Source: a phage. From it: a DNA stretch of 47,775 nt. Shown here in pieces: positions 9,220 through 41,755 of the stretch. The stretch lies in the sequence record PZ445409.1. One strand, given 5' to 3'. Each line of letters begins with the position of its first letter. The stretch's first letter is position 1. The notes under the pieces were generated by a model that saw nothing but the letters and a program-made list of their open reading frames with translations, did no database searches and was not told the origin of the DNA. The position numbers were made by a program, and so were the translations under genes.

Positions 9220-9882
9220 ATGCACTTGCCTAATGGTTCTCAAATTTTCATCGGCGTTAATATGGGTGAGCCAATTAGCGCGACTCAAATCACCAATGCT
9301 GATGATCCTGTTTTTACAGCTACAAACACTCAAAGCATCAAAAAAGGTGCTTATGTTCTTATTGAAACATCTTCTTGGGGCAAACTTGTTAGTCGAGTGC
9401 TTCGAGTTAAGGAAGTATCAGATAATGTAAGTGTTACTCTTGAAGGTGTTAGCACTAAAGATACAAACGTATTTCCAGAAGGAGAGAACACAGCAACTTT
9501 CCGAGAAGTGAAATCTTGGGTGGAGGTTCCTTGCGTACAGGATCTTGCGCAGGACGGCGGCGAGCAACAGTATTACACTTATCAGTGTTTGGCTGATGAC
9601 CAGGAGCAGCAGTTGCCGACCTACAAGAGCGCCGTTTCTCTTACCTATACTTTCGCGCATGAGTATGATAATCCGATTTATCCGATCTTGCGCGAGGCTG
9701 AGGAATCCGGCGACGTGACCGCCTTGCGTATGTACGTGCCGAAAGCTAAAGAGATGCGTTGTTGGGCTGGCGTATTGTCTTTTAATGACATTCCGCAAAC
9801 CACTATGAACGAAATGGAAACTGTTTCCCTTTCCGTATCTCTGAAAGGTCGATTCACGTTCTTACCTTCTGACGTTAAGTAA
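9220..9882 (+). CDS. major tail (tube) protein
   Basis: 220-aa ORF, AAGGAGG RBS; precedes chaperone G/GT and tape measure; terminator 9888-9909 downstream. Confidence 0.6.
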   Translation: MHLPNGSQIFIGVNMGEPISATQITNADDPVFTATNTQSIKKGAYVLIETSSWGKLVSRVLRVKEVSDNVSVTLEGVSTKDTNVFPEGENTATFREVKSWVEVPCVQDLAQDGGEQQYYTYQCLADDQEQQLPTYKSAVSLTYTFAHEYDNPIYPILREAEESGDVTALRMYVPKAKEMRCWAGVLSFNDIPQTTMNEMETVSLSVSLKGRFTFLPSDVK

Positions 9883-20457: not shown

Positions 20458-20685
20458 TTACAAACTGCAATCAGCGTTTTTGAAGTTATCGACGCTTACC
20501 CACTGAAAATTAAACGGATAGCCAGCCTTAACCAGAGTCTGATCACCAACTCTTTTAGCACCAAAAATAGCGACAGAATATTCCATTCCACTATTTTCAT
20601 AAGTGGCTGTGCATTCACGTTTAGGCATATTTGCGCAACCAGTCAGAGCAACGGCGGCAATTAAAACGGCGATTAATTTTTTCAT
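20458..20685 (-). CDS. cor: Cor-like superinfection exclusion lipoprotein
   Basis: 75-aa ORF from ATG 20685 (AAGGAG RBS 8 nt upstream; track start 20691 is TTG); signal peptide with lipobox LTGC; about 55-aa mature protein; placement after tail genes as in T1/phi80/N15. Confidence 0.6.
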   Translation of the reverse strand: MKKLIAVLIAAVALTGCANMPKRECTATYENSGMEYSVAIFGAKRVGDQTLVKAGYPFNFQWVSVDNFKNADCSL

Positions 20686-20716
20686 CTTCAATACTCCTTA
20701 GTTGTTGTTGACTGTA

Positions 20717-20758
20717 ACTATACACGATCCGACAAGCTGGGTTTAGCAAAAAGTGCTA
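20717..20758 (-). promoter_or_regulatory. phage promoter unit upstream of cor (variant element + TATAGT)
   Basis: Minus strand TAGCACTTTTTGCTAAAC then 18 nt then TATAGT; AAGGAG RBS and cor ATG follow. Confidence 0.5.
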
Positions 20759-21128
20759 CATGTTATTTTTTGTTTTCCGGTGTTATCGGATTTAAGACGG
20801 CGTAAATTTAGCGCAAATTTTAGCCAACATAATAACAATAAATAATCAATAAAATAGATATATACATATAAAATCAATAGTTTATTTATTTATGTATGTA
20901 TATTTGTTTTTTCTTGTTATCTGTGTTCCTTGTGGTTTTGGTTGTTTGTGGTGATTTTTCTTTCTGAGTATCTGTATGTGCCATCATTCATGTGTATGTA
21001 TATAATCCGGCGTATCTGAGAGAACAAGGGAACAAGAAAAATAACACATATTAATCATTAACTTACGAGTCAAATTTGTTTTATTGCCATATGAGAACGT
21101 TTAGAAAACAGAAAAAACAAATCACCTA
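20759..21128. repeat. AT-rich regulatory region A with alternating Pu/Py (GTATGTATAT) blocks and T/G-rich core
   Basis: Noncoding; shares TTCCG-GATAAC elements, GTATsTATAT blocks, T/G-rich core and GGGAACAAGAAAAA (21028-21041) with region B in the same orientation. Confidence 0.5.
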
Positions 21129-21156
21129 TTGACTAAACGCATCAAATAGCTAAAAT
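21129..21156 (+). promoter_or_regulatory. sigma70-like promoter (TTGACT-16-TAAAAT) for recombination operon
   Basis: -35 at 21129-21134, -10 at 21151-21156; GAGGA RBS and ATG 21186 downstream. Confidence 0.55.
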
Positions 21157-21185
21157 GCAGGCATACCAACCAATGAGGACGAATC

Positions 21186-22247
21186 ATGAATAAATTTATG
21201 GCTTACACCAGCGCAGAAATGAGCAACGAGCTTTATCACGATCCAGAAGCATGGACGGCTGAATATGTTAGCGGTTCAAGTCTGGCAGAGATTTACAGCA
21301 CTTGCCCTGCTGCGTGGAAGTTCAAGCCTCGCGACGATAAGAGCAAGGCGCTCATTTTCGGTACGCAGTCGCATACCAACTTCGAAAGCAAGGATCTATT
21401 TAATAAAACTTACCGCCGTGCACCAGCGCCGGAAGACTTCAAAGAGTTAATCACAAGTCAAACGGCATTAGCTGCAAAGCTGAAATCTTTTGGCCTGAAA
21501 GGGACAAGCGGAAAGGCTTACCCCGACCTTATCAAAATGATGGTTGATTGTGGCGAAGACCTTAACATCATGTGGTTAATCGACATGATCGCAGAAAGCC
21601 AGGCCAGAGCCGACGGCGTACAGTTAATCGACGCGAAAGATTACGATGCTTGCGTGGCAATGCGCCAGGTTCTGGAATCCATACCGGAACATAACGCCTG
21701 CATGAACAGCCCGACGGCACAGCGTGAATTGTCGTTATTCGGCGAAATCAACGGCGTAAAAGTTAAAGTTCGATGTGATCACGTTGACGTAGTGAAAAAC
21801 GTCACCGCCACGCTGATTGATGGTTATGACGAAAAAGGTCAGCCAATTTGCCGCGATATTATCTATCCAGAAGCGGTTGTTATCACTGACTACAAAACAA
21901 CAATGAGCGCAAATCCGATGGAGTTTATGCGACTGGCTTACAACCACGGCTATTATCTGAAAATGGCGCTGCAACATGATTTATTCAGGAAGGCATATCC
22001 AGACGAGAAGCGCCCTGTAGTTATGCGCCTGTTAGCCCAGGAGAAGAAAGAGCCTTATTTGCCGTTGGCTTTCCGCATGAACAGCGAGCAATTGAAGATA
22101 GGCCGAGTCCAGTATGTTAGCGTGATCCAACAGTTTGCTATGTGCCAGCATCATGACGTATGGCCTGCGTATGCAAACGGTGAGCCGGAAGTTTGCTTGG
22201 ATACGCCTGAATTTGTGCGCCGACAGTTCAAGCAGTATCTGATTTAA
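21186..22247 (+). CDS. PD-(D/E)XK recombination exonuclease (RecE/YqaJ-like)
   Basis: 353-aa ORF, GAGGA RBS; D...VITDYKT nuclease-core-like motif; first gene after sigma70-like promoter 21129-21156; followed by Erf and SSB. Confidence 0.55.
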   Translation: MNKFMAYTSAEMSNELYHDPEAWTAEYVSGSSLAEIYSTCPAAWKFKPRDDKSKALIFGTQSHTNFESKDLFNKTYRRAPAPEDFKELITSQTALAAKLKSFGLKGTSGKAYPDLIKMMVDCGEDLNIMWLIDMIAESQARADGVQLIDAKDYDACVAMRQVLESIPEHNACMNSPTAQRELSLFGEINGVKVKVRCDHVDVVKNVTATLIDGYDEKGQPICRDIIYPEAVVITDYKTTMSANPMEFMRLAYNHGYYLKMALQHDLFRKAYPDEKRPVVMRLLAQEKKEPYLPLAFRMNSEQLKIGRVQYVSVIQQFAMCQHHDVWPAYANGEPEVCLDTPEFVRRQFKQYLI

Positions 22248-22323
22248 ACCGCACAAATAGCTAAACAAATGATTAGCGCGGTGTTATAATTCGCCGCGCA
22301 GGTTAACAAATAATGGATTAATT

Positions 22324-22977
22324 ATGCAGCTATCAGAGAAATTCGATCTTGTACTTCCGGCGCTACACAAAGCGCGTTCAATGTTTGTGAAGGTTAAAAA
22401 AGACCGACAAAACAGCCATCTGAAAAACCGTTACGCCACACTTGACGCTGTACTTGATGCAATAACTCCAGCGTTGATGGATAACGACCTAATGCTAATG
22501 CAGGACGGCAGCCGCATCGAAAATAACACGCTGCGAGTCGAAACAACAGTAATGCACACATCAGGTCAGTGGGTGAAATATTTCTTTGACATCCCAATTG
22601 TGAAGAATGATCCGCAAGGCGTAGGTTCTGCTTTCACCTATGGGCGACGTTATGCGGCGGCGGCAGCGTTCGGTTTAAGCCAGGCTGACGACGATGCGCA
22701 AATCGCTGTTAAGTCTGCGAACGACTGGAAACGCGATCTTGATAAATGTGAGTCAGTACCTGAATTGCAGGAAACATTCAAGAAAGCATGGAGCGCAAGC
22801 GATCCAGCAAGTAAACAGGTCGTTAAGGAACACTACGAGAAACGCAAAGCAGAAATCGAAATCGGCGGCGCGCGCGGTTTTAATCCAGCGCAACCAAAAA
22901 AGAATCTTGCAAGTGATTCCGTTGACACCGCAAAACATGAGCAAGTACAATCGGCTAACATCACCGATTTTGAATAA
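22324..22977 (+). CDS. Erf-family single-strand annealing protein
   Basis: 217-aa ORF; [18 protein letters not shown] motif typical of ERF proteins; between exonuclease and SSB. Confidence 0.65.
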
Positions 22978-23018
22978 AAACGGGGCGCTTGCGCCCCATT
23001 TTCATAGGAGAAAACAAA

Positions 23019-23465
23019 ATGCACGTAGTCACAGGAACGATCAGAAAAGAGCCATACACAAAAGAAGGACAAAGCAACTCCGGCGCTTACAAGATGTATA
23101 TTGTGGAATTGTCGGAGTCTATTAAAGACAGACAGAGTGGTGAACGGATATATTCAAACTATAGCGCAACGTTCTTCGCATCAAGCGATGCAATGCGTCA
23201 TTGGTATGATAACGCGTTGCAGGTTGGTAAAGTCGTTTCCATCTCTGCGGAAGTTCTACGCATCAACCAGCGCGAGCATAACGGTAACAACTATGTAACG
23301 TTGCAGATGGAACAACCACGACTGGTATTCAGCCAGCGCACCGAAGGACAGCAGCAACAGCAGAATCAAGGTGGATGGGGGCAACCGCAACAGCAGCATC
23401 CTCGCCAGCAACCACAGCAAAGCAATCAGCCGCCAATGAATTTTGACGACGACATTCCATTCTGA
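23019..23465 (+). CDS. ssb: single-stranded DNA-binding protein
   Basis: 148-aa ORF, AGGAG RBS; Gln/Gly-rich linker and acidic C-terminal tail ending DDDIPF, hallmark of SSB. Confidence 0.8.
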   Translation: MHVVTGTIRKEPYTKEGQSNSGAYKMYIVELSESIKDRQSGERIYSNYSATFFASSDAMRHWYDNALQVGKVVSISAEVLRINQREHNGNNYVTLQMEQPRLVFSQRTEGQQQQQNQGGWGQPQQQHPRQQPQQSNQPPMNFDDDIPF

Positions 23466-24205: not shown

Positions 24206-24484
24206 TTAAGCCCATTCTCTAATAGGCTGATCTAACTCAACCACGTAGTCGTTAAAAATTACGGCATCAAACTTATCATCAATGATTCGCACATTGACGA
24301 AATAGCCGTCGTTCTTTTGCGCAATCTCCTCGCCATCGTCAGATCGTGCAATTACTGTGTAAGTAGTGCCGATTACATCAAGCATGATAGCGTTTTGAAG
24401 CTCATCATTATCATGCCATTCGATTTCGTCCAGAAAGGCGGAAAACTCCGCCTTGTCTACAAATTTCAGTGTTAAATCGCGCAT
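24206..24484 (-). CDS. hypothetical small protein (fibre-associated)
   Basis: 92-aa ORF from ATG 24484 with TAATG overlap to tail fibre stop (track start 24625 lies inside the fibre gene). Confidence 0.45.
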   Translation of the reverse strand: MRDLTLKFVDKAEFSAFLDEIEWHDNDELQNAIMLDVIGTTYTVIARSDDGEEIAQKNDGYFVNVRIIDDKFDAVIFNDYVVELDQPIREWA

Positions 24485-26451
24485 TATACAATTTCCCCTA
24501 ATTGATGATCTGTTAATTCTTTGTGCCAAATACGCAAGTTCTTGACGTGTCCGAAAAGATGGAGTTCGCCTGTACTTGTTTGTCCGCCAATCCTTATAGT
24601 AGCCGTTGATACTATATATCTCCATTCCGTTTTTGTTTCGCTTGATATTCTGGCATTACTTACACAACAAGTATTGTAATCACTCTTTACTCTCATTCCT
24701 ATGATCATCTTTTTTAGTTTCGCATTCTCGTTAACCCTTCTGTTTGATTTACCTATATCGCAATAAGGGAATCCATCAGCATCGCCTTCGGCAGACCCGA
24801 AAGCAAGAATAATTCCCGCACCAGATTGATGACCTCCAGTATCGAAAACACGAGGCGCAGCATTTGGCGTTCTACTCCAGTTTTTATGAGCCTCCACAAG
24901 AACTGTAAACGGCAAATTGTAAAGGTTGTTTTTTATTGGCACTGTAACCATATCGCTTGCCCTTGTAACTGGCTTATCGCCAGTTACAATTAAAGACGAA
25001 GCAGATGATCCGTTTTCAACTTGGGCGGTAGCTAGAGTCATAAATTGACCTGCGGTAACATCCTGACCTTCCCTTGCTGCCATCTCAACGCGAGCATACA
25101 TCTTTATATCTTCTGGTGCTTTATATGTACCCTGGAATAATACCCATCCACCTGATTCCTGCTTCACATCATACGTCAACTTATTTCCTCCAGTCACATC
25201 AAGAGTGACAAGATCTAACATCACGTCAGCTATAAATGTGTTTCCCTGCCCATCAGGATTTAGCTTGGAGAATCGCAATCTTAACCTAACTGGTGAAGAA
25301 TATTCCTCGCCGATTCTTGCGCGTATTGAGATAGTACCATACTCACCATTCGCAACATCCACTACGCGAGATACACCAGTTGAAATTGCTGTAATCGGTA
25401 CAGTATCTTGACTTTCTTTATAAGTAAATTTAGCGGAAGTTATACCAAATTCATCTGTAGAATTAGCGGATACGTCCAACCTATTTAAGTTTCTATTCCA
25501 TTTGTCCGGTGAATTGCTATTACTGAAGTTGTTTGTTCTCTGCCCTTCAATCAGCAATCCATCTCTTTCAAAACGTGGTTCATCAATTGCTGCAACGGTA
25601 AGAATACCTGATTTGTTAATGTATGTTGCAGTTGATGCACGTTTAAATTTGACAATCTTGTCGCCCGGCATCGTGATCTCATCGTCACCTATGACAATCT
25701 TTTTGTATGACGGCGAGAATCCGGTAATCATATCCAGGGAATCATTAAATGGTATCCACACGTCCGGCAACGGTTGCAATAAGTCTTTGTAAGGTTCTGC
25801 GGCCTGCTTTGCGTATTCCTCCGCTTGATCTCGCGCACTTTCAGCTCCTGCCTTTGCAGTTTTCGCAGCGTCACGCGCGGATTCAGCGCCAGACTTTGCT
25901 GCTTCAGCGCCAGTCTTTGCAGTGTTTGCAGCGTCGCGCGCGGATTCAGCGGCAGCCTTTGCAGTATCAGCGCCTTTCTTGCTATTCGCTGCATTTGTTG
26001 CGCTTGTCTTCGCGCTATTCTCGCTGGTTTTAGCTGCCTGCTGGCTTGCTGCTGCTGCGTCAGCATTTGTCTTTACGTCTTCTTGGATCTTCTGTAGCTT
26101 ATCCCAATCAAAATCCTTGATGATCTCAATAAATCCAGCAAGCTCCGACTCTTTCCCCATGTAGTAGCGCAATGTTTCCGCTACGTCTTGCGCCAGGCCA
26201 TCAACAGTTAACGAGTCATGAAGCAAGATTATGTAGTCTGAACGGGGAACAACAGCACCACCAGTGGTGATTGCTCGAATGCTAGTATCGTTGACCACTT
26301 CGGTGATAACTGCGGCCTGTAGCGGCTGTGTCAGAAAAATAATGGTTGCGCCGGAACGGATCAGCGTTAACTGCTCACGCCAGTTCGTCCCGTAGCCAGT
26401 TATATAGCCTTGAGCGTCCATTGACGCTTGACCTTTGCGATAAATTGCCAT
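24484..26451 (-). CDS. side (L-shaped-like) tail fibre protein
   Basis: 655-aa ORF from ATG 26451 with AGGAGA RBS; Ala/Lys/Glu-rich coiled-coil segment after a conserved-looking N-terminal domain; beta-rich distal part. Confidence 0.65.
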   Translation of the reverse strand: MAIYRKGQASMDAQGYITGYGTNWREQLTLIRSGATIIFLTQPLQAAVITEVVNDTSIRAITTGGAVVPRSDYIILLHDSLTVDGLAQDVAETLRYYMGKESELAGFIEIIKDFDWDKLQKIQEDVKTNADAAAASQQAAKTSENSAKTSATNAANSKKGADTAKAAAESARDAANTAKTGAEAAKSGAESARDAAKTAKAGAESARDQAEEYAKQAAEPYKDLLQPLPDVWIPFNDSLDMITGFSPSYKKIVIGDDEITMPGDKIVKFKRASTATYINKSGILTVAAIDEPRFERDGLLIEGQRTNNFSNSNSPDKWNRNLNRLDVSANSTDEFGITSAKFTYKESQDTVPITAISTGVSRVVDVANGEYGTISIRARIGEEYSSPVRLRLRFSKLNPDGQGNTFIADVMLDLVTLDVTGGNKLTYDVKQESGGWVLFQGTYKAPEDIKMYARVEMAAREGQDVTAGQFMTLATAQVENGSSASSLIVTGDKPVTRASDMVTVPIKNNLYNLPFTVLVEAHKNWSRTPNAAPRVFDTGGHQSGAGIILAFGSAEGDADGFPYCDIGKSNRRVNENAKLKKMIIGMRVKSDYNTCCVSNARISSETKTEWRYIVSTATIRIGGQTSTGELHLFGHVKNLRIWHKELTDHQLGEIV

Positions 26452-26469
26452 CTGTAATTTTCTCCTGTA

Positions 26470-26488
26470 TAGCACTTTTTGCTAATGA
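26470..26488 (-). promoter_or_regulatory. inverted copy of conserved element abutting RBS of side tail fibre gene
   Basis: Coding (minus) strand reads TCATTAGCAAAAAGTGCTA then tACAGGAGA RBS then ATG at 26451. Confidence 0.45.
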
Positions 26489-26557: not shown

Positions 26558-27487
26558 TTATAGCAGTGATTCGGGCTTGTAGAGTTTTCTTTCTACGCCC
26601 TGTTTAAAATTATCGTTAACAGGCATCATTATGTCAAGACCTCTTTCCTCTGCCGCGATTATCACATCACGATCATCTTTCCGGCAGACTACGCGCATTC
26701 TTCTTTCTCCTTTATATCTATGCGCAACCATTTCAAGATTTGAAGGAGTAAAGCAGGCCCACACCTCTTGACCAGTTGATAAATGAACATGCTGGGAATC
26801 AACCCAATCAAGGCACAAATATATCGTCTTATCTGTGCTACCTGTTTTAACAACAGACCCGCGCGTGTAGTCGCGAGCTAAAAACCAATCCTTTCCATCC
26901 TCATCAATGAAAAGCACGTTACACATTTCATCATCCAGCCCGTCATCATGCACCAGGTGACAAGGTAGCGCGTGAATGTATCGACCATCCTTGACGCCGC
27001 AATCATAATGACAACCTTCCGGCGGATATATCCCCTCATAAACGCTTAAAGGTGTGCGATCGAATTTTAATGTTTTTGCCATCACTTTTTCGCAGCATTC
27101 ATGACTTGCCTGTTTCCCGAACGAGTAACCAGAAGAACGCGAAGCGCGTTTGTTTGCTCTGATCCTGTAATCCTGCGGCACTTTTCCGAGGAAGCGACCC
27201 AAAATGTTGATGGCCTCGCTGTAAGGTTCGCCAGTTAATTTCATTAACCAACCGATCCCCGTGTCGTTACCGCACACGTTGCAGATCGCGCCGCCGTCGC
27301 CCTCTTCATTTAGCTTATCAGTCCATCTAAAACGATCCTTACCGCCGCAGTGTGGGCAAGGCTGATGCTTTTTGTTGAAAACATCGCTATGCAGTCCGCA
27401 AATGCTTTGTAGTGCTTCACGCCATAACCCCTTCATATATGGCAAAACATCTTCTTTCTGATAGGTCATAAAGTTTTCAGTATTCAT
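26558..27487 (-). CDS. DNA primase (zinc-ribbon + TOPRIM-like)
   Basis: 310-aa ORF from ATG 27487 with GAGG RBS after a terminator hairpin; CPHCGG...CNVCG zinc-binding motif and acidic IDEDG cluster. Confidence 0.55.
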   Translation of the reverse strand: MNTENFMTYQKEDVLPYMKGLWREALQSICGLHSDVFNKKHQPCPHCGGKDRFRWTDKLNEEGDGGAICNVCGNDTGIGWLMKLTGEPYSEAINILGRFLGKVPQDYRIRANKRASRSSGYSFGKQASHECCEKVMAKTLKFDRTPLSVYEGIYPPEGCHYDCGVKDGRYIHALPCHLVHDDGLDDEMCNVLFIDEDGKDWFLARDYTRGSVVKTGSTDKTIYLCLDWVDSQHVHLSTGQEVWACFTPSNLEMVAHRYKGERRMRVVCRKDDRDVIIAAEERGLDIMMPVNDNFKQGVERKLYKPESLL

Positions 27488-27542
27488 GGCAAACCTCAAT
27501 AAAAAAGCCCAGCAAATATTATCATTTCGCTGGGCCTTATCA

Positions 27543-28019
27543 TTAGCTATTCGTGCTGTTATCACCTTTGTAGAATCTTCCGCCTGGTTCGTAGTCTGAA
27601 TTTTTGACTACGCGCAACATTTCGTATTTGTCGCAACGGGTAGTAAGAGGCTTGCCGTTAGAATCAAACCGCAGATCTGGACGACAAAACGAGGCGCGGT
27701 ATCCTTTGCATCCATTATATTTGTAGTCGTTATGCACCTTTTGTGCTCCAGCGGCTGAAATCATACCACGCTTTCGCCATTGGTTAACAACTTGCTGAGA
27801 TACGCGCAGACGTCGAGCCATAGCAGGAACGCCGCCGTAATACTCGATCAGAATGTCAAGGCGAGATTTCAGGCTTGCTTTTACCTCATCTCGCAGGATA
27901 AGAAATCCGGTTCGATGTTTTCGTGGCTTTTTGTCTTTACCTCGTCGCGTTCCGTTGTTACCGTTAATAGTGCGCTTGTCGATCTCACCAGTAGACACTG
28001 CAATTCGTGCATCTTTCAT
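27543..28019 (-). CDS. XRE/Cro-like HTH DNA-binding protein
   Basis: 158-aa ORF with GAGGTGA RBS; helix-turn-helix GGVPAMARRLRVSQQVVNQWRKRG; Cys-rich C-terminal part; inverted copy of the conserved 19-bp element in its 5-prime UTR. Confidence 0.55.
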   Translation of the reverse strand: MKDARIAVSTGEIDKRTINGNNGTRRGKDKKPRKHRTGFLILRDEVKASLKSRLDILIEYYGGVPAMARRLRVSQQVVNQWRKRGMISAAGAQKVHNDYKYNGCKGYRASFCRPDLRFDSNGKPLTTRCDKYEMLRVVKNSDYEPGGRFYKGDNSTNS

Positions 28020-28031
28020 CTAGTCACCTCA

Positions 28032-28074
28032 TAGCATTTTTTGTTAAAACAGTTTATTGTAATGAGTCTATTAT
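28032..28074 (+). promoter_or_regulatory. phage promoter unit (19-bp element + 18-bp spacer + TATTAT)
   Basis: TAGCATTTTTTGTTAAAAC at 28032-28050, hexamer 28069-28074; 32 nt before helicase ATG. Confidence 0.6.
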
Positions 28075-28106
28075 ATACTCCAAATGGCATTTTTTAAAGG
28101 TTTAAG

Positions 28107-30104
28107 ATGATTCCAAATATCGAAAAACAAATATCAGCGTTAGGCGAGGCAGTAATAAAAAGCATCCAAGAGCGATTCACGGTTGGCAATATAGTGCCTT
28201 ATCCTTATCAGTGCGTTGCGTATGCCGAGATCGCAAAGCGCATGAAAAACTATGAGCATCCTTTCTTTGTTAAGGCTTCTGTGTCGGCTGGTAAAACATT
28301 GATGTTTGCGATGGTTGCGGCGCAATGCCGCAAGATGGGATTGAAAATGATGGTCCTTGCTCGCCAGGCTGAAATTGTTGATCAGGATTCAGAAGAGATC
28401 AGCAATCTTGGCGTGCCAAACTCAATCTATTGCGCCGGACTGAAAACAAAAAGCGCATACTTTCCGATCGTAGTCGGTTCTGAGGGCACTGTAGTAAACG
28501 GATTGTTTAAGTCGTTAGGTGATTATGTTCCGCACGTTATCGGTATTGATGAATGTCACCAGGTGGATTGGGAGGATCTCGCTGATGCGATAGAAAATAA
28601 TGAATCTTACCAGCAGATGACCACTAAGAAGGATTTGCCTGTACTGATTGGAGAAGAACAGCAATTTGATTCCAATGGCGATCCAATGTTCGGAACAGGG
28701 CGCACACAGTACACCGTAATAATCATGGAAATGATGCGCAGGTGTCGCGAGGCATACGGGCACGAATTGCGAATATTCGGTATGACTGGATCTGAGTTTC
28801 GCGGCGTGGTTCCAATACTGGTTGAAGATAAGAACAAAAAGGGATTCTGGCGTGAGCAGGTGACTAACATAGACACAAACTACTTAATCAAATTTGGTTC
28901 GGTAGTGCCAACAAATTTCGGCGACGTAGGCGACCTGGGGTATGACCTTTCAGAGTTCGAAGCCAGTAGCGAGGATGGCGTTTCAGACTTTGACGCTAAA
29001 ACATTGCGCAAGATGGAAGAAAAGATCCATCAAGACGCAACAATGACACAGAAAATCATGGCTAAAGTCCATGAGATATGCAAAGACAGGAACGGAGTTT
29101 TAGTTACATGCGCAGGGGAAAGGCACTGCAAGGAGGCAGCCGCCGCACTGCCGCCAGGCGTTGAATACAGGATCATAACTGGCAAGACTGGAGATAATCA
29201 GCGTAAAGAGTGGCTGAGGGAGGCATACGAGGGAAAAGTAAAATACATCTTCCAGGTACAGGCGCTTACCACTGGCGTTAACGTTCCGTTTTGGGATACT
29301 TCTGTAATACTGAGAAAGATAGGATCTCTAACATTGCTAATCCAGCTTTTGGGGCGCGGTATGCGACTGCTTAAGCAATGGCACATTGAGCAGGGATTCA
29401 AGAAAAAAGATCATCTTGTATTGGATTTTGCCGGTACTATGGATGAGTTAGGGGATTTGTATTTCGATCCAATCCTTGAGCAAGCGCAATTCCAAAAGAG
29501 ATTTACAAACGGGAAAGAGCCTAAGACTTGTCCGATATGTGGAACGCTAAACAGCTTTTACGCTCGCCGATGTATGCACGTAGACGATAACGGGAAGAGA
29601 TGCGAGCATTTTTGGACTTACAGAATTTGCGAGGACCAGGTAGATCCGAGAACGAAAAAGATAATCAAGCGCGGTTGCGGAACAAAAAACGACGTAGTGG
29701 CGAGAGTATGCCGTTGTTGCGATATTTCTCTTGTCGATCCTAACGAGAAGTTAAGCGGCAAGCACTACACCAAAAACGATTGGTGCAACGTTAAATCTTT
29801 CCGCGTTGATATGACGAAAAACCAGAAAGGAATTGTTTTTTGCTATGAGCTTGAGGCCAACGGCGACACGTTCAAGGCATACGAAAGATTTTTCCCTGAG
29901 TCAGAAAGCAACATTTGCCGGACGATATGGAGAAAAATAGCATTGCAGCACATACCGGATCGCAAGATTGCTGGTATGGTGGCGAGCTATAGAAATGCGC
30001 GTAAAATAATGTCATACGCTCATCACATCATGCCTCCTGTACGCGTAACGCATCGCAAAAACGGCAAAGGTGAGGATAACATTGCAAAACGGGAGTTTGT
30101 TTAA
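28107..30104 (+). CDS. superfamily 2 helicase
   Basis: 665-aa ORF; Walker A SAGKT, DECH box (VIGIDECHQ), C-terminal Cys-rich zinc-finger-like region; driven by promoter unit 28032-28074. Confidence 0.7.
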   Translation: MIPNIEKQISALGEAVIKSIQERFTVGNIVPYPYQCVAYAEIAKRMKNYEHPFFVKASVSAGKTLMFAMVAAQCRKMGLKMMVLARQAEIVDQDSEEISNLGVPNSIYCAGLKTKSAYFPIVVGSEGTVVNGLFKSLGDYVPHVIGIDECHQVDWEDLADAIENNESYQQMTTKKDLPVLIGEEQQFDSNGDPMFGTGRTQYTVIIMEMMRRCREAYGHELRIFGMTGSEFRGVVPILVEDKNKKGFWREQVTNIDTNYLIKFGSVVPTNFGDVGDLGYDLSEFEASSEDGVSDFDAKTLRKMEEKIHQDATMTQKIMAKVHEICKDRNGVLVTCAGERHCKEAAAALPPGVEYRIITGKTGDNQRKEWLREAYEGKVKYIFQVQALTTGVNVPFWDTSVILRKIGSLTLLIQLLGRGMRLLKQWHIEQGFKKKDHLVLDFAGTMDELGDLYFDPILEQAQFQKRFTNGKEPKTCPICGTLNSFYARRCMHVDDNGKRCEHFWTYRICEDQVDPRTKKIIKRGCGTKNDVVARVCRCCDISLVDPNEKLSGKHYTKNDWCNVKSFRVDMTKNQKGIVFCYELEANGDTFKAYERFFPESESNICRTIWRKIALQHIPDRKIAGMVASYRNARKIMSYAHHIMPPVRVTHRKNGKGEDNIAKREFV

Positions 30105-34852: not shown

Positions 34853-35044
34853 TTCCATACGCTTTACCGTAACCAGTAATACACCATCATCATTGCATAA
34901 AACATGTTCAGTGGTGCTAAAAGCGCGCATATCTGAATAAAGTAGCGTAAGTAAAGCATGAATAAAATCCTCATGTGATATTGAATTTACGGCGCAGTGC
35001 TTCAAGATCTTGTCTATTAGCTTTTGCCTGGAACAATTCATCAT
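34850..35044 (-). CDS. hypothetical small ORF (alternative frame)
   Basis: 64-aa ORF whose TAG stop is the TAG of the conserved promoter element (as for several other genes); overlaps 3-prime end of 34971-35366 by 74 nt in another frame. Confidence 0.25.
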   Translation of the reverse strand: MMNCSRQKLIDKILKHCAVNSISHEDFIHALLTLLYSDMRAFSTTEHVLCNDDGVLLVTVKRME

Positions 35045-35366
35045 CGCCCATCTCCCCTATTCTCGCCATATCCCTGATCCAGTCGTTGCGCATACCATCC
35101 AGGCTATACAATTCGAATCCGAAAGGCCGCTTTGACGATCCTTTGGACCAGTATTTTCCGCAGACCCCATCTATATAACCAGCCGTCATCATTCTTGCGC
35201 AAAATTCCTTAGATGCAAGGCTGGCGAACATTCGCGGCGTAAGTCCGGCGGCCCGTGCGAGCCGCTCACATTCTCTATGCTGATAGATAAATTTGGCTAT
35301 GTGCTGCCTGTTAAACCAGTCGTATGACTCACACCATTTATACAGATCAAGCAAAAACATAATCAT
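34971..35366 (-). CDS. hypothetical protein
   Basis: 131-aa ORF; ATG overlaps stop of upstream ATPase gene (ATGA), indicating translational coupling. Confidence 0.5.
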   Translation of the reverse strand: MIMFLLDLYKWCESYDWFNRQHIAKFIYQHRECERLARAAGLTPRMFASLASKEFCARMMTAGYIDGVCGKYWSKGSSKRPFGFELYSLDGMRNDWIRDMARIGEMGDDELFQAKANRQDLEALRRKFNIT

Positions 35367-36946
35367 CCCAGCAGTATTGGATTGACAAAAATAACACCAT
35401 TAATCACACAAACATAATTTCTTTCTTCCAGCATTGGCAGCAAGTGCCCTTCTATCCTCTTCATTACGCCAGCCTGACCAACGAAAGGTTTTACCTTTCT
35501 CGCTGATTCGTACAGGGCGCGAATATTCAGGATCCCTTTGTTAGCCTTGCCGTGTCTAGTGATCAATTCAATCAATTTACCCATTTCAGCATCATCACCA
35601 GCATAACCAGAAGCATTGGCGGCGCTAATGTATGTTTTGCTCAATTCCTGAAACATGATCAGCGCCTCTTGCATTGTTTCCACGTCGATCTCTTTCGACT
35701 TCTGCGGGTATCCGGCAGGATTAAACCAGTTGCGGATAACATGCAGGACGGAAGCAAGCCTGATCACCTGTTTATCCATTTTACCCAGCGCACCGCGTAA
35801 CATTGTATGAGAATACTTTCCGCCGTCTGCAAGATGCGGTTCCATATCCTGGCGAGCAATGTTGAGCACTCGCATAGCTGAACGGCTTATTTTCAGCGAT
35901 ATATTTGATTCGCTCATGATGTTATGCACCAATTGATAATATTGGGCCTTCAATTCAGGATCCACCGCCTCATAGGTAGAATCACCATTTTCATCAATGA
36001 ATGAGCGACGGCCTAAGAATGATTCCTCACGGACCAACAAAAAGCGCTCACTCACACCGATACCGCGCGATCCAGCGTCCATGATTCCGCTTATCGTTTC
36101 ATCCTGGGCTATAACGCTCATACATCCAAGCGCGCGAAAACTCATGTTATTGTCAGCATTAGCACGGGCAATTGATACGTGACCATTATCCCACGCCTTA
36201 AGCACTAGCTCGCTGTTAGTCTTCCTTTCGCTATTGGCATAGGTCAAGCCTAACAGGCTGTTAATACTTGTTGCTTCGTCAGATATTACGGCAAAGTTAC
36301 CTTGCTTGTTGTTGATTTTCGCCAAGCCTTCTGGAGTGGTATCTGAAACAGGGAAAGTTATATCACACATCTTTTCCAGCTTCTCCTCCAGATCCTCTTT
36401 TTCCTGGTATAGAGATTCCATATCAGCGCCTGATCTTTCGCTTTTCATCTCCTTTGCAAGACCTGCCAACTTTGCCTGTATTTTCTTTCTTTCCTTGCGG
36501 CGTTGCTCGTTGATCTTCTCAACTTCCGCAATCATCGGAGCAATAGCCATACTGTTGATCGCAGATTTACCAGTTGACGGCGGCTGGCTTGTAACTACGT
36601 AAAGCGCAGTCGGCTGATCTGTTCCGTGGTAGTCAACTGTGAATCGACCAAGCATAGCGGCAGAAATACATCCGATAAAGTGCATGTAGGCCGATGATTC
36701 AGGGAATTGAACAGATCTCGCAAGATTGCGCGCCAGCTTACCAACTACATCAACATCATTCCCAAGTGAAATAACAGGGTAGCGGTCGTTACCGCCGTTA
36801 ATATCTTCCACCTGGCCCCAATAGCTTGAAGATTGGCGGTATCCGTTGGCCTGAATGGATACACGAACAGGGGAAATACCTTGAGATTCGGCGGTTTCAA
36901 TGATTTGTTTCGGTGATAACTGACTTGTTTCAAATGAAAAATTCAT
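35363..36946 (-). CDS. P-loop NTPase (DUF3987/primase-helicase-associated-like)
   Basis: 527-aa ORF with AGGAG RBS; deviant Walker A (QPPSTGKS), central charged coiled-coil segment; driven by promoter unit 36974-37016. Confidence 0.5.
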   Translation of the reverse strand: MNFSFETSQLSPKQIIETAESQGISPVRVSIQANGYRQSSSYWGQVEDINGGNDRYPVISLGNDVDVVGKLARNLARSVQFPESSAYMHFIGCISAAMLGRFTVDYHGTDQPTALYVVTSQPPSTGKSAINSMAIAPMIAEVEKINEQRRKERKKIQAKLAGLAKEMKSERSGADMESLYQEKEDLEEKLEKMCDITFPVSDTTPEGLAKINNKQGNFAVISDEATSINSLLGLTYANSERKTNSELVLKAWDNGHVSIARANADNNMSFRALGCMSVIAQDETISGIMDAGSRGIGVSERFLLVREESFLGRRSFIDENGDSTYEAVDPELKAQYYQLVHNIMSESNISLKISRSAMRVLNIARQDMEPHLADGGKYSHTMLRGALGKMDKQVIRLASVLHVIRNWFNPAGYPQKSKEIDVETMQEALIMFQELSKTYISAANASGYAGDDAEMGKLIELITRHGKANKGILNIRALYESARKVKPFVGQAGVMKRIEGHLLPMLEERNYVCVINGVIFVNPILLG

Positions 36947-36973
36947 TAAATCGACTCCTATTTGGTGCGGTGT

Positions 36974-37016
36974 ATGTTACCGCACCAATACTACCCTTAT
37001 TTGTCAAAAAGTGCTA
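36974..37016 (-). promoter_or_regulatory. phage promoter unit (variant element + TAACAT)
   Basis: Minus strand TAGCACTTTTTGACAAATA + 18 nt + TAACAT; upstream of ATPase gene. Confidence 0.5.
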
Positions 37017-37025
37017 TTTGATCCG

Positions 37026-37235
37026 CTAGATTGCAACCAGTAGGCGATCTGGCTGGCGGTCGCTGTAGCATTCTCCGGTTACATCATCCTTAAAAGTGAA
37101 GTAAAGCGACTTGTGATATGAATACCCAATCAGCCAACCTTCCGCAGTTCTCTTTATTGGCCTGACAATATCGCCAGGCTTGAAAGTTGCAGTTGTGGCG
37201 TGAGTTACTTTATATCGGTATTCACTGCGGATCAT
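37026..37235 (-). CDS. hypothetical protein
   Basis: 69-aa ORF; ATGA overlap with upstream gene. Confidence 0.5.
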   Translation of the reverse strand: MIRSEYRYKVTHATTATFKPGDIVRPIKRTAEGWLIGYSYHKSLYFTFKDDVTGECYSDRQPDRLLVAI

Positions 37236-37618
37236 GAATATTTGGCCTCAAAAAGATAAGAGTAACCAGCAGAGAATCCGACCTCCTCGCGGTAGAGCGT
37301 CCATCGGTCGCCGTCCTCATCGAAGACGTAACCAGCAACTGATCCAAGAACGCGACCCTGTTCGACCTGGTAACGCTTTCCAGCTTTAAAACTTTTTTTG
37401 GTTTTCACCCGGTGATCAACAAACGTACATAGAATCGTCTTTGCCTTGATAGTGCGGTATTCGTCCTGGTTGGCTGATTCCCACTTCGCGCCCTTAGCCA
37501 GCGCCTTAACCTGAAATTCCTCCACCTCGATCACGTCGTCGCTGCCAGCTACTTTTGTGTAAACAGTTTTATAGCGACAGTTCATCAATTTGTTGTCGGA
37601 ATTGCGGATAACTTTCAT
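37232..37618 (-). CDS. hypothetical protein
   Basis: 128-aa ORF with GGAG RBS; first gene after promoter unit 37651-37693. Confidence 0.5.
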   Translation of the reverse strand: MKVIRNSDNKLMNCRYKTVYTKVAGSDDVIEVEEFQVKALAKGAKWESANQDEYRTIKAKTILCTFVDHRVKTKKSFKAGKRYQVEQGRVLGSVAGYVFDEDGDRWTLYREEVGFSAGYSYLFEAKYS

Positions 37619-37650
37619 TTGATTTTCTCCAGTTGTTTTCGTTGAAACGC

Positions 37651-37693
37651 ATTATGCCCGACTCAAGGTAGGGCGTTTTAACAAAAAGTGCTA
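37651..37693 (-). promoter_or_regulatory. phage promoter unit (element + CATAAT)
   Basis: Minus strand element starts with methyltransferase-like gene stop TAG; hexamer at 37656-37651. Confidence 0.6.
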
Positions 37694-38894: not shown

Positions 38895-38902
38895 TCATCA
38901 CC

Positions 38903-39127: not shown

Positions 39128-39240
39128 CGCATAATCCCCTTAATAACAGCCAAGATAATAGCCAGGCCAGCAGCAGTAACCAAAAATCCAACCGCGCCAA
39201 TAATCGAATAAAAAAAGAAATCAATAGCTTTATCTATCAT
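39124..39240 (-). CDS. small membrane protein (38 aa, not in ORF track)
   Basis: ATG 39240 with GAGGTGG RBS right after a minus-strand terminator; single hydrophobic helix; TGA overlaps next ATG. Confidence 0.4.
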   Translation of the reverse strand: MIDKAIDFFFYSIIGAVGFLVTAAGLAIILAVIKGIMR

Positions 39241-39282
39241 TTTCCACCTCATTTAAAAGGCGGCAAAACGCCGCCAGATTAA

Positions 39283-41143: not shown

Positions 41144-41186
41144 AATGTACCCGATCAGGTGGCCTGAGTTTTAACAAAAAGTGCGA
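41144..41186 (-). promoter_or_regulatory. phage promoter unit (variant element + TACATT), first leftward promoter
   Basis: Minus strand TCGCACTTTTTGTTAAAAC + 18 nt + TACATT + ACACACATC leader; AGGAG RBS; ATG 41108. Confidence 0.6.
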
Positions 41187-41218
41187 TTTGACGGTTAGCG
41201 CCAGGATTGTGATAGAAA

Positions 41219-41306
41219 TAATCAAAAGTAATCATTCGTAATCAAATCACGTCAAAATGATGATTGCCTTTGCAAATTTGATGAGAAAAGTAATCACGTT
41301 TAATCA
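41219..41306. repeat. 10-bp-phased GTAATCA/TAATCA iteron-like repeats
   Basis: TAATCA at 41219, 41229, 41239 and at 41291, 41301 (exact 10-bp spacing within each set); partial inverted copy TGATTG at 41261. Confidence 0.5.
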
Positions 41307-41726
41307 TTGGTTGCAGTGGAGATAGTGAAACCTTCCCCTCTTGCCTCACTTTTCCGCCTGGCTGTCAGTGGTTGTTATGTTCCGTTTTCGCCTGTTCTTT
41401 TGTTGACCTTCCGCAAAATACGATAACAAAAAATAACAAACAATACCTATATAATACATTGAAAAATAAGGATTATTTATTTATATGTATCTATATATTC
41501 TCTTTTGTTATCTTGGTTATTGTGGTATTTGGTGGGGGTATATAGTTTTTGTGTATCTATATGTGTGTATGGGTATGTAGGGGCATATATATCTATATGG
41601 CACTTTCCGCGATAAAACTTCGATAACAAGCAATGATAACATTGATTTATAAGGAAAAATAACGCCCATATTGTTATTGTGCCACCATATAAAATTGATA
41701 AAACACGCGGGAACAAGAAAAAACAG
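41307..41726. repeat. AT-rich regulatory region B, paralogous to region A
   Basis: TTCCGC..CGATAAC at 41409-41427 and 41605-41627; GTATCTATAT blocks at 41487, 41553, 41589; T/G-rich core 41499-41545; GGGAACAAGAAAAA at 41709-41722. Confidence 0.5.
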
Positions 41727-41755
41727 TTGACACATTAAATAGCATTATTGATAAT
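41727..41755 (+). promoter_or_regulatory. near-consensus sigma70 promoter (TTGACA-17-GATAAT with TG) for rightward operon
   Basis: -35 at 41727-41732, extended -10 TGATAAT at 41749-41755; preceded by GGGAACAAGAAAAA element. Confidence 0.6.

What the first reader, a model, noticed from the sequence alone, without database searches (positions are those of the whole stretch)
20692..21185. Region A is a direct, diverged paralog of control region B, 20 kb away
The 494-bp noncoding region between cor and the recombination operon contains, in the same order and orientation as region B, a TTCCGG-GTTATCG element (20775-20788), GTATGTATAT blocks (20891-20903, 20991-21006) flanking a T/G-rich core (20904-20960), GGGAACAAGAAAAA (21028-21041) and a sigma70-like promoter (21129-21156). 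Two copies of one regulatory cassette drive the recombination genes and the rightward operon, implying shared regulation or a duplicated origin. Direct repeats 20 kb apart are also potential recombination substrates.
Basis: seen in the sequence. Interest (0 to 1): 0.5.

Follow-up and report, generated by a model that had tools for sequence, protein, structure and literature searches.

The report
Paired iteron/AT-rich cassettes in T1-like phage
The two largest non-coding stretches of this T1-like phage genome are diverged copies of one roughly 400-base cassette, which looks most like a pair of replication-origin or early-control elements and gives a testable candidate for the unidentified origin of T1-like phages.

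Summary
Region A (20692-21185) and region B (about 41330-41783) are each other's only strong match in the window: local alignment score 85, against 22.8 +/- 2.7 for dinucleotide shuffles and 23 +/- 7 for all other 700-nt windows. They lie in direct orientation.

The window is a Drexlerviridae (Tempevirinae) phage. The same A/B pairing is present in all 13 genomes I compared, which include three named subfamilies. Across subfamilies, A and B within one genome resemble each other more than A resembles A or B resembles B. That points to concerted evolution or a shared binding protein.

Each cassette has this layout:
- short lineage-specific repeats in a fixed order and orientation (here ATAACA/TGTTAT, 5 and 7 copies against about 0.9 expected);
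- these repeats flank the two least stable duplex segments of the genome;
- then a T/G-rich stretch and a further repeat cluster;
- then a near-consensus (10-11 of 12) sigma-70 promoter.

Region B also carries, to the left of the cassette, the zone where the mapped pac ends of T1 and TLS fall.

Best reading (about 0.45): paired origin-type elements bound by one phage protein, as in SPP1 oriL/oriR or P4 ori/crr. Main rival (about 0.3): operator or enhancer cassettes for the two early promoters. No experiment exists, and the accessible literature does not describe the pairing.

The parts
20742..20766 (-). Copy of the 21-nt repeat ATAGCACnnnTTGnTAAA. It faces cor and marks the left edge of region A.
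   Evidence: (D3). The window has 16 copies against 0.57 expected. The element is described in the TLS paper PMC11447400 with function unknown.
20761..20840 (.). Cassette A, left repeat cluster: TGTTAT at 20761 and 20781 (minus sense) and ATAACA at 20832 (plus sense).
   Evidence: the hexamer occurs 5 times in A against 0.95 expected (P=0.003). The density is 10 per kb, against 0.77 per kb outside A and B.
20802..20921 (.). Cassette A, AT-rich centre. It is the least stable 120-nt duplex segment of the whole window (60-nt minimum at 20837-20896). It contains an IHF-core match, AATCAATAGTTTA, at 20872-20884.
   Evidence: -125.8 kcal/mol against a genome mean of -163.8 +/- 7.9. (GC 0.30). (IHF core).
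20904..20960 (+). Cassette A, T/G-rich core. It starts with the inverted repeat copy TTGTTATC (20914-20921), which lies 83 nt from the ATAACA at 20832.
   Evidence: The same 83-nt spacing occurs in B (41423 to 41506).
20891..21006 (+). Two TGTATGTATAT blocks (20893-20903 and 20993-21003), exactly 100 nt apart, bracketing the T/G-rich core.
   Evidence: D5. B has ATATGTATCTATAT-type blocks at 41483, 41549 and 41585; the outer two are 102 nt apart.
21020..21048 (+). Cassette A, right repeat cluster: GAGAACAAG-GGAACAAG-AAAAATAACACA, three tandem NNAACA units 8-13 nt apart.
   Evidence: The homologous cluster in tonijn B reads GTTAACAGCGTGAACAGAAAAATAACAG.
21104..21156 (+). A-tract (UP-element-like) followed by the sigma-70-type promoter TTGACT-16-TAAAAT, which faces recE (ATG at 21186).
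   Evidence: The promoter is conserved in T1 as TTGACTAAACGC...TATAAT.
41170..41194 (-). Copy of the 21-nt repeat facing the leftward genes. It marks the left edge of region B.
41208..41313 (.). B-specific zone of TGATT/AATCA repeats, absent from A. The equivalent zones of T1 and TLS contain position 1 of their records, which is the mapped pac end.
   Evidence: (D3). TLS has a HindIII site at 5876, and the paper places pac about 5,882 bp from a HindIII site. The T1 record begins with a repeat_region at 1-2800.
41373..41441 (.). Cassette B, left repeat cluster: TGTTAT at 41373 (minus sense), then ATAACA at 41423 and 41433 (plus sense).
   Evidence: 7 copies in 41330-41783 against 0.86 expected (P<0.001).
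41414..41533 (.). Cassette B, AT-rich centre. It is the second least stable 120-nt segment of the window (60-nt minimum at 41447-41506).
   Evidence: -129.4 kcal/mol. (GC 0.29).
41504..41600 (+). Cassette B, inverted repeat copy TTGTTATC (41505-41512), T/G-rich core and the flanking ATATCTATAT blocks.
   Evidence: D4.
41610..41683 (.). Cassette B, right repeat cluster: CGATAAAAC-TTCGATAACAAG-CAATGATAACA, plus AATAACG and TTGTTATTG.
41709..41755 (+). GGGAACAAGAAAAAAC (UP-element-like) abutting the sigma-70-type promoter TTGACA-17-GATAAT, which faces the DUF7174 gene (ATG at 41784).
27543..28019 (-). Candidate trans-acting binder (inferred): a Cro/YdaS-like helix-turn-helix protein encoded just upstream of the primase gene (26558-27565).
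   Evidence: (phrog_2856). The recognition helix is nearly the same in the ATAACA lineages and different in TLS, T1 and Rtp. The protein is 100% identical in the phages that share this A core.

Best explanation
**What it is.** Regions A and B are two copies, in direct orientation 20.6 kb apart, of a non-coding cassette of roughly 400 bp. The cassette appears to be a standard part of Drexlerviridae genomes.

**Layout of each copy.**
- Oriented copies of a short, lineage-specific repeat (here ATAACA).
- These flank an extremely AT-rich segment, the easiest DNA in the genome to unwind.
- Next come a T/G-rich stretch and a tandem cluster of the repeat.
- About 80 nt further on is a strong early promoter pointing away from the cassette.

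**How it most likely works (inferred).**
- A single phage-encoded sequence-specific protein binds the repeats in both cassettes.
- That protein, together with the negative supercoiling left behind by outward transcription, opens the AT-rich centre.
- The phage's P4-alpha-type primase and its helicases then load.
- The two cassettes would therefore be a pair of replication-origin-type elements. They could be two origins. Alternatively one is an origin and the other an auxiliary or fork-arrest site, as in SPP1 oriL/oriR or P4 ori/crr.
- The same occupancy could also regulate the two early promoters.

**What is shown and what is not.** Shown: the paralogy, its presence across the family, the co-evolution of the two copies, the repeat architecture and the stability minima. 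Inferred: the binding protein and origin activity.
For: 1. **Real paralogy, unique in the genome**.

2. **Present in every genome examined.**
   - Within-genome A-vs-B scores: window 85, tonijn 114, vojen 70, SLUR29 108, TLS 63, T1 66, Rtp 141.
   - Six further genomes assembled from environmental samples (IMG/VR contigs). Five gave direct A-vs-B z-scores of 9-34.
   - The sixth, contig 2974606805, scored highest (84) against the strand I had assumed to be inverted. Contig coordinates show its copies are also direct, and they align over about 400 nt.

3. **Co-evolution of the two copies.** Comparisons of A with A, or of B with B, across subfamilies score only 24-58, below the within-genome scores for T1 and Rtp.

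4. **Least stable DNA.** In the window, T1, TLS and Rtp, the two least stable 60-nt and 120-nt duplex segments of the whole genome are the A and B centres. They lie about 5 SD from the mean and are well separated from third place.

5. **Lineage-specific short repeats concentrated in A and B.**
   - Window: ATAACA/TGTTAT, 5 and 7 copies against about 0.9 expected, a 13- to 20-fold higher density than elsewhere.
   - T1: TGTAACA, 6 copies inside A and B and 0 outside.
   - Rtp: TCCGCGGA, 6 inside and 0 outside.
   - Contig 2974606805: (A/C)(T/C)CCTCCG(T/C)AA, with 5 tandem copies at 10-11 nt, one inverted copy just after the AT centre and 3 tandem copies at the right edge, in both A and B.
   - Over 41 non-redundant A regions, spacings between neighbouring same-strand repeat copies peak at 8-11 nt (45 of 75), with a second peak at 18-20 nt.

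6. **Order, orientation and spacing of the repeat copies match between A and B.** The pattern is minus, plus, AT centre, minus, T/G stretch, plus. The inverted pair around the AT centre is 83 nt apart in both.

7. **The replication genes are of the P4 type.** The primase is homologous to the P4 alpha primase domain (E = 2e-16). P4 uses two separate cis elements that share GGTGAACAG iterons. TLS and tonijn carry tandem CGTGAACA(G).

8. **There is precedent.** SPP1, another virulent pac-type siphovirus, has two distant origins of similar organisation (direct repeats plus an AT-rich unwinding element), both bound by one protein (PMC6316719).

9. **No other origin candidate is known.** The TLS re-annotation looked for iteron-type origins and reported none (PMC11447400).
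Against: - No experiment bears on origin activity or protein binding.
- In this window the repeat is only a 6-mer, and A has few copies.
- An automatic search for GC-containing 8-mers did not recover a repeat shared by A and B in the window, TLS or Rtp.
- AT-rich, bent DNA upstream of strong promoters is common without any role in replication.
- In T1 the repeat is a short palindrome (GTGT-W-ACAC). Two copies lie at and just downstream of the only TTGACA match in B, whose -10 is poor. That position is typical of an operator.
- The A/B similarity extends through spacer sequence that carries no repeats. Gene conversion could explain that without any functional constraint.
- No homolog of the P4 alpha origin-binding domain was found.
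- There are no DnaA boxes.
- Phages with the same A core and the same helix-turn-helix protein can carry rather different B cores, for example tonijn against this window.
Confidence: 0.45

Rival explanations
1. Early-promoter control cassettes. The repeats are operators or enhancer sites for a phage regulator such as the Cro-like helix-turn-helix protein. The AT-rich, T-tract DNA is an upstream activating or bent region. Together they switch the two host-polymerase early operons on and off, with no role in replication.
For: - Both cassettes end in sigma-70 promoters matching 10 and 11 of 12 consensus positions, with A-tracts directly upstream.
- The TLS paper found only three intergenic sigma-70 promoters in the whole genome, one of them before the recE homolog. 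A and B may therefore hold the immediate-early promoters.
- The T1 and Rtp repeats are palindromic, which is typical of sites bound by dimeric helix-turn-helix proteins. Two T1 copies lie at and just downstream of the only TTGACA match in B.
- A conserved Cro/YdaS-like regulator is encoded in 829 related records.
Against: - In this window no repeat copy overlaps either promoter. Most copies lie 80-370 nt upstream.
- Tandem arrays of up to five direct repeats at one-helical-turn spacing are unusual for simple operators.
- The cassette is kept where the downstream promoter is of the 21-nt-repeat type, and in TLS where it is not between divergent genes.
- Being the two least stable duplexes in four genomes goes beyond what a UP element requires.
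Confidence: 0.3
2. Homogenised spacer DNA with little function of its own. An old duplication of a promoter-upstream region is kept similar by gene conversion through the phage RecE/Erf system, and the short repeats are by-products of low-complexity sequence.
For: - Similarity runs through AT-rich spacer sequence (Rtp: 124 nt ungapped at about 80% identity; contig 024360: 204 nt).
- The cores are swapped between lineages as modules.
Against: - Both copies are retained in all 13 genomes despite tight packing of the genome.
- Order, orientation and an 83-nt spacing of repeat copies are conserved even where the surrounding sequence has diverged.
- GC-containing repeats such as TCCGCGGA and ATCCTCCGYAA are not low-complexity sequence, and they are nearly confined to A and B.
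Confidence: 0.1
3. Packaging signal. The shared cassette is what the small terminase recognises, so A would be a second pac-like site.
For: - B lies in the non-coding region where the pac ends of T1 and TLS map.
- Phased short repeats are typical of small-terminase binding sites.
Against: - The mapped ends fall in the TGATT-repeat zone, which is specific to B, about 200 nt to the left of the shared core.
- TLS restriction analysis reports a single submolar pac fragment.
- A second pac site 20 kb away would start a second packaging series, and none has been described.
Confidence: 0.05
4. A duplicated small RNA or small protein gene.
For: Some GenBank records annotate short hypothetical ORFs in these regions.
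Against: - Rfam gives no match.
- Folding energies are not better than shuffled sequence on either strand (z = +0.5, +0.1, -1.9, -1.6).
- The A/B alignment is full of 1- and 2-nt indels.
- The longest ORFs differ in strand and length between relatives.
- No internal promoter is conserved.
Confidence: 0.03

Closest known systems
Bacillus phage SPP1 oriL / oriR
   Same: - SPP1 is also a virulent siphovirus with pac-type headful packaging and a genome of about 44-50 kb.
- It has two distant cis elements of similar organisation: direct repeats plus an AT-rich unwinding element. One of them sits in a long intergenic region.
- Both are bound by one phage protein.
- In the SPP1 model, the second site arrests forks and triggers the recombination-dependent switch to concatemer synthesis, using a 5'-3' exonuclease, an annealing protein and SSB (PMC6316719).
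- Here, cassette A sits directly upstream of recE-erf-ssb.
   Different: - There is no sequence or protein homology. SPP1 uses gp38, gp39 and a DnaB-type gp40. This phage has a P4-type primase, a DUF3987 helicase and an SF2 helicase.
- SPP1 oriL lies inside the initiator gene, whereas both cassettes here are intergenic and attached to promoters.
- Origin function is proven for SPP1 and unproven here.
Satellite phage P4 ori / crr
   Same: - P4 has two separated cis elements that share short iterons (GGTGAACAG/TGTTCACC) in direct and inverted copies next to AT-rich DNA.
- The primase here is homologous to the P4 alpha primase domain (24% identity, E = 2e-16).
- TLS and tonijn carry tandem CGTGAACA(G).
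   Different: - P4 alpha combines primase, helicase and an iteron-binding winged helix in one protein. No homolog of that binding domain was found here, and the DUF3987 helicase is unrelated to alpha at the sequence level.
- The P4 elements are 4.5 kb apart and are not copies of one cassette.
- The iteron resemblance is limited to some lineages and could be coincidence.
Iteron-plus-unwinding-element origins (lambda ori, plasmid oriV)
   Same: - Short direct repeats phased at about one helical turn, next to the least stable DNA.
- Nearby transcription could help opening.
   Different: - Lambda ori lies inside the O gene and is single-copy.
- There are no DnaA boxes here.
- The repeat in this window is only 6 nt long and its copies are scattered rather than forming one tight array.
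The 21-nt intergenic repeat of T1-like phages (aaATAGCACnnnTTGnTAAAA)
   Same: It is also a repeated non-coding element of Drexlerviridae. One copy sits at the left edge of each of A and B.
   Different: It is a different element. It is a single 21-mer found before many genes (16 copies here). It is not part of the homology between the A and B cores.

Membership tests
Iteron-type phage/plasmid replication origin | Multiple copies of a short specific repeat, concentrated at the locus | tested here: met
   - Window: ATAACA/TGTTAT, 5 copies in A and 7 in B against about 0.9 expected (P = 0.003 and P < 0.001), and 13- to 20-fold denser than elsewhere.
- The signal is much stronger in some relatives: T1 6 inside and 0 outside, Rtp 6 and 0, contig 2974606805 11 and 8 copies.
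Iteron-type phage/plasmid replication origin | Repeats phased at about one helical turn | tested here: inconclusive
   - Across 41 non-redundant A regions, spacings peak at 8-11 nt and again at 18-20 nt.
- In this window only short runs show it: 41423/41433, 41623/41636 and 21020-21048.
Iteron-type phage/plasmid replication origin | Adjacent AT-rich DNA-unwinding element | tested here: met
   The A and B centres are the two least stable duplex segments genome-wide in the window, T1, TLS and Rtp.
Iteron-type phage/plasmid replication origin | Specific binding by an initiator protein | not testable with these tools
   There are only candidates: the Cro-like helix-turn-helix protein next to the primase gene and the C-terminal part of the DUF3987 helicase.
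Iteron-type phage/plasmid replication origin | Replication starts there, or the element supports replication in cis | not testable with these tools
   No published mapping was found.
SPP1-like dual origins | Two distant elements of like organisation in one genome | tested here: met
SPP1-like dual origins | Homologous initiator (gp38) and helicase loader | tested here: not met
   The Pfam and PHROG scans of the replication genes and of the ORFs flanking A and B show a P4-type primase, DUF3987, an SF2 helicase and a Cro-like helix-turn-helix protein. Nothing gp38/gp39-like was seen among them. This is an analogy only.
P4 ori/crr system | Alpha-type primase | tested here: met
   BLASTP of P4 alpha residues 20-263 against the window primase gives E = 2e-16, plus a Zn_Ribbon_Prim domain.
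P4 ori/crr system | Alpha C-terminal iteron-binding domain | tested here: not met
   tblastn of the alpha C-terminus against the window, T1, TLS and Rtp finds nothing significant.
pac site (terminase recognition) | Coincides with the packaging-initiation cut | tested here: not met
   The mapped ends of T1 and TLS fall in the TGATT-repeat zone, which is specific to B, and not in the shared core. A has no such zone.
Structured non-coding RNA | Rfam match or stable conserved fold | tested here: not met

The most novel reading that the evidence does not exclude
The two cassettes form an SPP1-like division of labour. One (probably B, at the left genome end beside pac) fires as the early theta origin. 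The other (A), bound by the same protein directly upstream of recE-erf-ssb, arrests the fork. It thereby triggers the recombination-dependent switch to concatemer synthesis that T1 is known to need. If so, the cassette pair would be the cis-acting core of the T1 replication programme, and it would co-evolve with a rapidly diverging specificity protein.
Probability: 0.15. Interest if true: 0.7.

Novelty: new member of a known kind. Interest (0 to 1): 0.5.

Why it matters
- T1 is one of the founding model phages and a notorious laboratory contaminant, yet where its replication starts is not known.
- A 2024 re-annotation of the relative TLS reported finding no iteron-type origin and listed the non-coding repeats among the open questions.
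- This pair of co-evolving, repeat-studded, easily melted cassettes was found in every relative I checked. It gives two precise 400-bp targets for origin mapping, protein-binding assays and engineering.
- It also matters for building synthetic or minimised T1-like genomes.
- It helps explain how mosaic recombination can swap genes while leaving cis-elements matched to their binding proteins.

Tried and rejected
- **Non-coding RNA.** Rfam at gathering thresholds found nothing in the window. RNA folding of both cores on both strands was not better than shuffles. I dropped the RNA reading.
- **Host-factor sites.** No consistent DnaA boxes. An IHF core match occurs only in some A centres.
- **TTCCGG, TTCCGCG and CGGCGTA as specific motifs.**
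- **'A is more conserved than its flanking genes'.** This turned out to be mosaicism, not constraint. The A core is 98% identical to Warwickvirus-type phages and 69% to Hanrivervirus-type phages. cor and recE show the opposite pattern.
- **P4 alpha origin-binding domain.** No homolog by tblastn. The DUF3987 helicase has no PDB relative by sequence.
- **Searches that fell short.**
  - The DUF7174 alignment could not be used to fetch B regions.
  - The helicase-based scan returned only 19 loci, and many contigs are opened inside B.
  - An exact-pattern scan of IMG/VR found few relatives.
- **Automatic 8-mer search.** It was restricted to GC-containing words and missed the AT-rich repeat of this window. 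It failed to find a repeat shared by A and B in TLS and Rtp.
- **Covariation with the helix-turn-helix protein.** This is compatible with it being the binder, but it does not discriminate, because every protein differs between the lineages compared. BEK1-23 has the same A core with a protein only 80% identical, though its recognition helix is nearly unchanged.
- **Coding potential.** No ORF is conserved across relatives.
Full report
**What the window is**

The region around the finding matches T1-like coliphages of the family Drexlerviridae, subfamily Tempevirinae. Region A with its flanks is up to 88% identical to phage BabyEgg. Region B is 97-98% identical to phages tiwna and atuna.

The gene layout is:
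- plus-strand structural genes, 1-20428
- cor on the minus strand, 20458-20691
- region A, 20692-21185
- recE, erf and ssb on the plus strand, 21186-23465
- a minus-strand block that includes a P4-type primase and a Cro-like helix-turn-helix protein
- a plus-strand block from 28107
- a minus-strand block, 34971-41108, that includes a DUF3987 helicase
- region B, 41109-41783
- a plus-strand operon of small genes that starts with a DUF7174 protein at 41784

**Checking the observation**

- A local alignment of A against B scores 85 over A 20825-20980 and B 41414-41565. Dinucleotide shuffles give 22.8 +/- 2.7, maximum 34.
- Shuffles that keep local composition give z = 7.8.
- B is the one outstanding match of A among all 700-nt windows on both strands, and A is the best match of B (85 against 23 +/- 7).
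- The repeat finder reports a 61-nt ungapped pair independently.

So the similarity is real and in direct orientation. It is not just shared AT-richness, although A and B are the two lowest-GC bins of the window (0.30 and 0.29).

- The leftmost 'TTCCGG-GTTATCG' element has its second half inverted in B, and TTCCGG-type strings are common everywhere in the genome.
- GGGAACAAGAAAAA lies 88 nt from the -35 hexamer in A but abuts it in B.
- In this window the continuous homology covers about 155 nt. The rest is matching motifs in the same order.

**The pairing is found across the family**

I compared the region upstream of recE with the region upstream of the DUF7174 operon in other genomes.
- Within-genome A-vs-B scores are 114 (tonijn), 108 (SLUR29), 70 (vojen), 63 (TLS), 66 (T1) and 141 (Rtp). 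Against local-composition shuffles, z is 7.4 for T1, 9.4 for TLS and 28.8 for Rtp.
- In tonijn the two copies align collinearly over about 360 nt, right up to the -35 hexamer.
- I assembled six further A/B pairs from genomes sequenced from environmental samples (IMG/VR contigs). I used RecE and the DUF3987 helicase as anchors and the local stability minimum as a pointer. Five gave z = 9-34 in direct orientation.
- The sixth, contig 2974606805, aligned over about 400 nt. Contig coordinates show its copies are also direct.
- All 13 genomes therefore have both copies.

Comparisons of A with A, or of B with B, across subfamilies score only 24-58. That is below the within-genome A-vs-B scores of T1 and Rtp. 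The two copies in a genome therefore co-evolve.

**Anatomy of the cassette**

- In the window, T1, TLS and Rtp, the two least stable 60-nt and 120-nt duplex segments of the entire genome are the centres of A and B. They lie about 5 SD from the mean and well clear of third place.
- Short lineage-specific repeats flank these centres.
  - In this window the hexamer ATAACA/TGTTAT occurs 5 times in A and 7 times in B, against about 0.9 expected from dinucleotide shuffles. Elsewhere its density is 0.77 per kb.
  - The copies run in the same order and orientation in both: minus, plus, AT centre, minus, T/G-rich stretch, plus. The inverted pair around the AT centre is 83 nt apart in both.
- Other lineages use other words.
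  - T1: TGTAACA, 6 copies in A and B and none elsewhere.
  - Rtp: the palindrome TCCGCGGA, 6 and none.
  - TLS: CGTGAACA.
  - Contig 2974606805: a very clear ATCCTCCGYAA repeat. It has five tandem copies at 10-11 nt, one inverted copy just after the AT centre and three tandem copies at the right edge, in both A and B.
- Across 41 non-redundant A regions, spacings between neighbouring same-strand copies peak at 8-11 nt and again at 18-20 nt.
- An automatic search limited to GC-containing 8-mers confirmed enrichment in B for six genomes. It failed for the window, TLS and Rtp. The repeat evidence is therefore strong in some lineages and moderate here.
- Each cassette ends in an A-tract followed by a near-consensus (10-11 of 12) sigma-70 promoter.

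**What B has and A lacks**

To the left of the shared core, B carries a zone of TGATT/AATCA repeats (41208-41313).
- The equivalent zones of T1 and TLS contain position 1 of their GenBank records.
- T1 annotates a terminal repeat at 1-2800.
- In TLS a HindIII site at 5876 matches the published 'pac about 5,882 bp from HindIII'.
- Another paper also places pac in this untranslated region (PMC7718038).

The packaging signal is therefore most likely a B-specific module. The shared cassette is something else.

**Mosaicism**

The A core of this window is 98% identical to tonijn and SLUR29 and 69% to vojen and G29-2. The adjacent cor and recE genes show the reverse pattern (divergence from tonijn begins inside the promoter spacer). 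The helix-turn-helix protein is 100% identical to that of tonijn, SLUR29, tiwna and atuna.

So the flanking genes were exchanged while the cassette stayed with the backbone. This fits a cis-element that must match a protein encoded elsewhere in the genome, but chance could also produce it.

**Readings ruled out or weakened**

- Not an RNA: no Rfam match and no fold better than shuffled sequence.
- Not coding: the alignment has frame-breaking indels, and no ORF is conserved across relatives.
- No DnaA boxes. An IHF core match occurs only in several A centres.

**Mechanism**

The architecture is that of an iteron-type origin: oriented and phased short repeats flanking the most easily unwound DNA, next to promoters that transcribe outward.

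Two known systems use two such elements.
- SPP1 is also a virulent siphovirus with pac-type packaging. It has oriL and oriR, of similar organisation and both bound by gp38. oriR is proposed to stall forks and trigger the exonuclease/annealing-protein/SSB-dependent switch to concatemers (PMC6316719). Here cassette A lies directly upstream of recE-erf-ssb.
- P4 has ori and crr, which share GGTGAACAG iterons. The primase here is a homolog of the P4 alpha primase domain, and TLS and tonijn carry tandem CGTGAACA(G). The alpha iteron-binding domain has no homolog here.

The most plausible binder is the Cro-like helix-turn-helix protein encoded next to the primase gene. Its recognition helix is nearly the same in the ATAACA lineages and different in TLS, T1 and Rtp. 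This test does not discriminate between candidates.

The main rival is a purely transcriptional role. Evidence for it:
- Only about three sigma-70 promoters are predicted in TLS.
- The T1 and Rtp repeats are palindromic.
- Two T1 copies lie at and just downstream of the only TTGACA match in its B region, which has a poor -10.

The two roles can coexist. I put origin-type function at about 0.45 and promoter control alone at about 0.3.

**Novelty**

Full-text searches found no description of the A/B pairing. They covered the TLS re-annotation (which states that no iteron-like repeats were found), the SU57, KanT1 and AHP24 papers, and broader searches.

If the cassettes are origins, they are a new member of a known kind. 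They would also be the first concrete origin candidates for T1-like phages.

Noticed in passing
window 1566, 6192, 9950, 20742, 26469, 28031, 30520, 31591, 34836, 37000, 37677, 40086, 41170, 42502, 43803, 45123: There are 16 copies of the 21-nt repeat ATAGCACnnnTTGnTAAA against 0.57 expected. Most are followed by a GC-rich hairpin and a -10-like hexamer about 22 nt after the TTGnTA. The copies at 6192, 9950 and 26469 lie on the strand opposite to the surrounding genes, whereas the TLS paper describes the repeats as pointing in the direction of transcription. The A promoter (AATCACCTATTGACTAAAC) looks like a variant of this element.
   Followed up: partly
window 41208-41313: This zone of TGATT/AATCA repeats is specific to B. 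The equivalent zones in T1 and TLS contain record position 1, the mapped pac end, so it is a candidate terminase recognition site. In T1 and Rtp it is bracketed by two copies of the 21-nt repeat.
   Followed up: partly
window 20458-21600: There are mosaic breakpoints at the cassette edges. cor and recE are of the Hanrivervirus type (85-89% identical to vojen and G29-2, 77% or less to tonijn and SLUR29). The A core is of the Warwickvirus type (98% against 69%). The right breakpoint lies inside the promoter spacer, at about 21140.
   Followed up: yes
window 41784-42248; L003 539-1114; L004 589-1038; L005 546-1064: The first gene after B is a DUF7174 protein in every genome checked, and it evolves very fast. 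It is 29% identical between this window and tonijn, although their helix-turn-helix regulators are 100% identical. The T1 homolog gives a weak AcrF2 (anti-CRISPR) Pfam hit, E = 0.005, below threshold.
   Followed up: partly
L024 (P4) 9310-9413 compared with L004 (TLS) B and L019 (tonijn) B: The P4 type I origin iteron GGTGAACAG, tandem at 10-11 nt, closely resembles the tandem CGTGAACACGTGAACAG of TLS and CGTTAACAGCGTGAACAG of tonijn. These are phages whose primase is homologous to the P4 alpha primase domain. It could be coincidence.
   Followed up: partly
L086 / L123 (IMGVR_UViG_2974606805_000001): This distant relative has RecE and the DUF3987 helicase on the same strand, unlike the window. 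Its cassette A is followed by a promoter of the 21-nt-repeat type rather than a sigma-70 consensus. It shows the clearest repeat arrays of any genome examined (ATCCTCCGYAA, 11 copies in A and 8 in B).
   Followed up: partly
window 25840-25974: A 63-nt tandem repeat of 2.1 copies at 84% identity lies inside the long minus-strand ORF 24484-26475. That ORF is probably a tail fibre gene, judging by its position relative to T1 gp26.
   Followed up: no
phage collection hits MG065640, MG065641, MG065679, MG065687 and others: About 18-20 records named 'Campylobacter phage' with host Campylobacter jejuni are T1-like genomes. They are about 82% identical to this coliphage across cor and recE, and they carry the same regulator. 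The names or hosts look doubtful.
   Followed up: no
window 28014-28134: The divergent promoter region between the helix-turn-helix gene and the SF2 helicase gene is the third least stable 120-nt segment of the genome, and it carries a copy of the 21-nt repeat at 28031. No ATAACA cluster was noted there.
   Followed up: no
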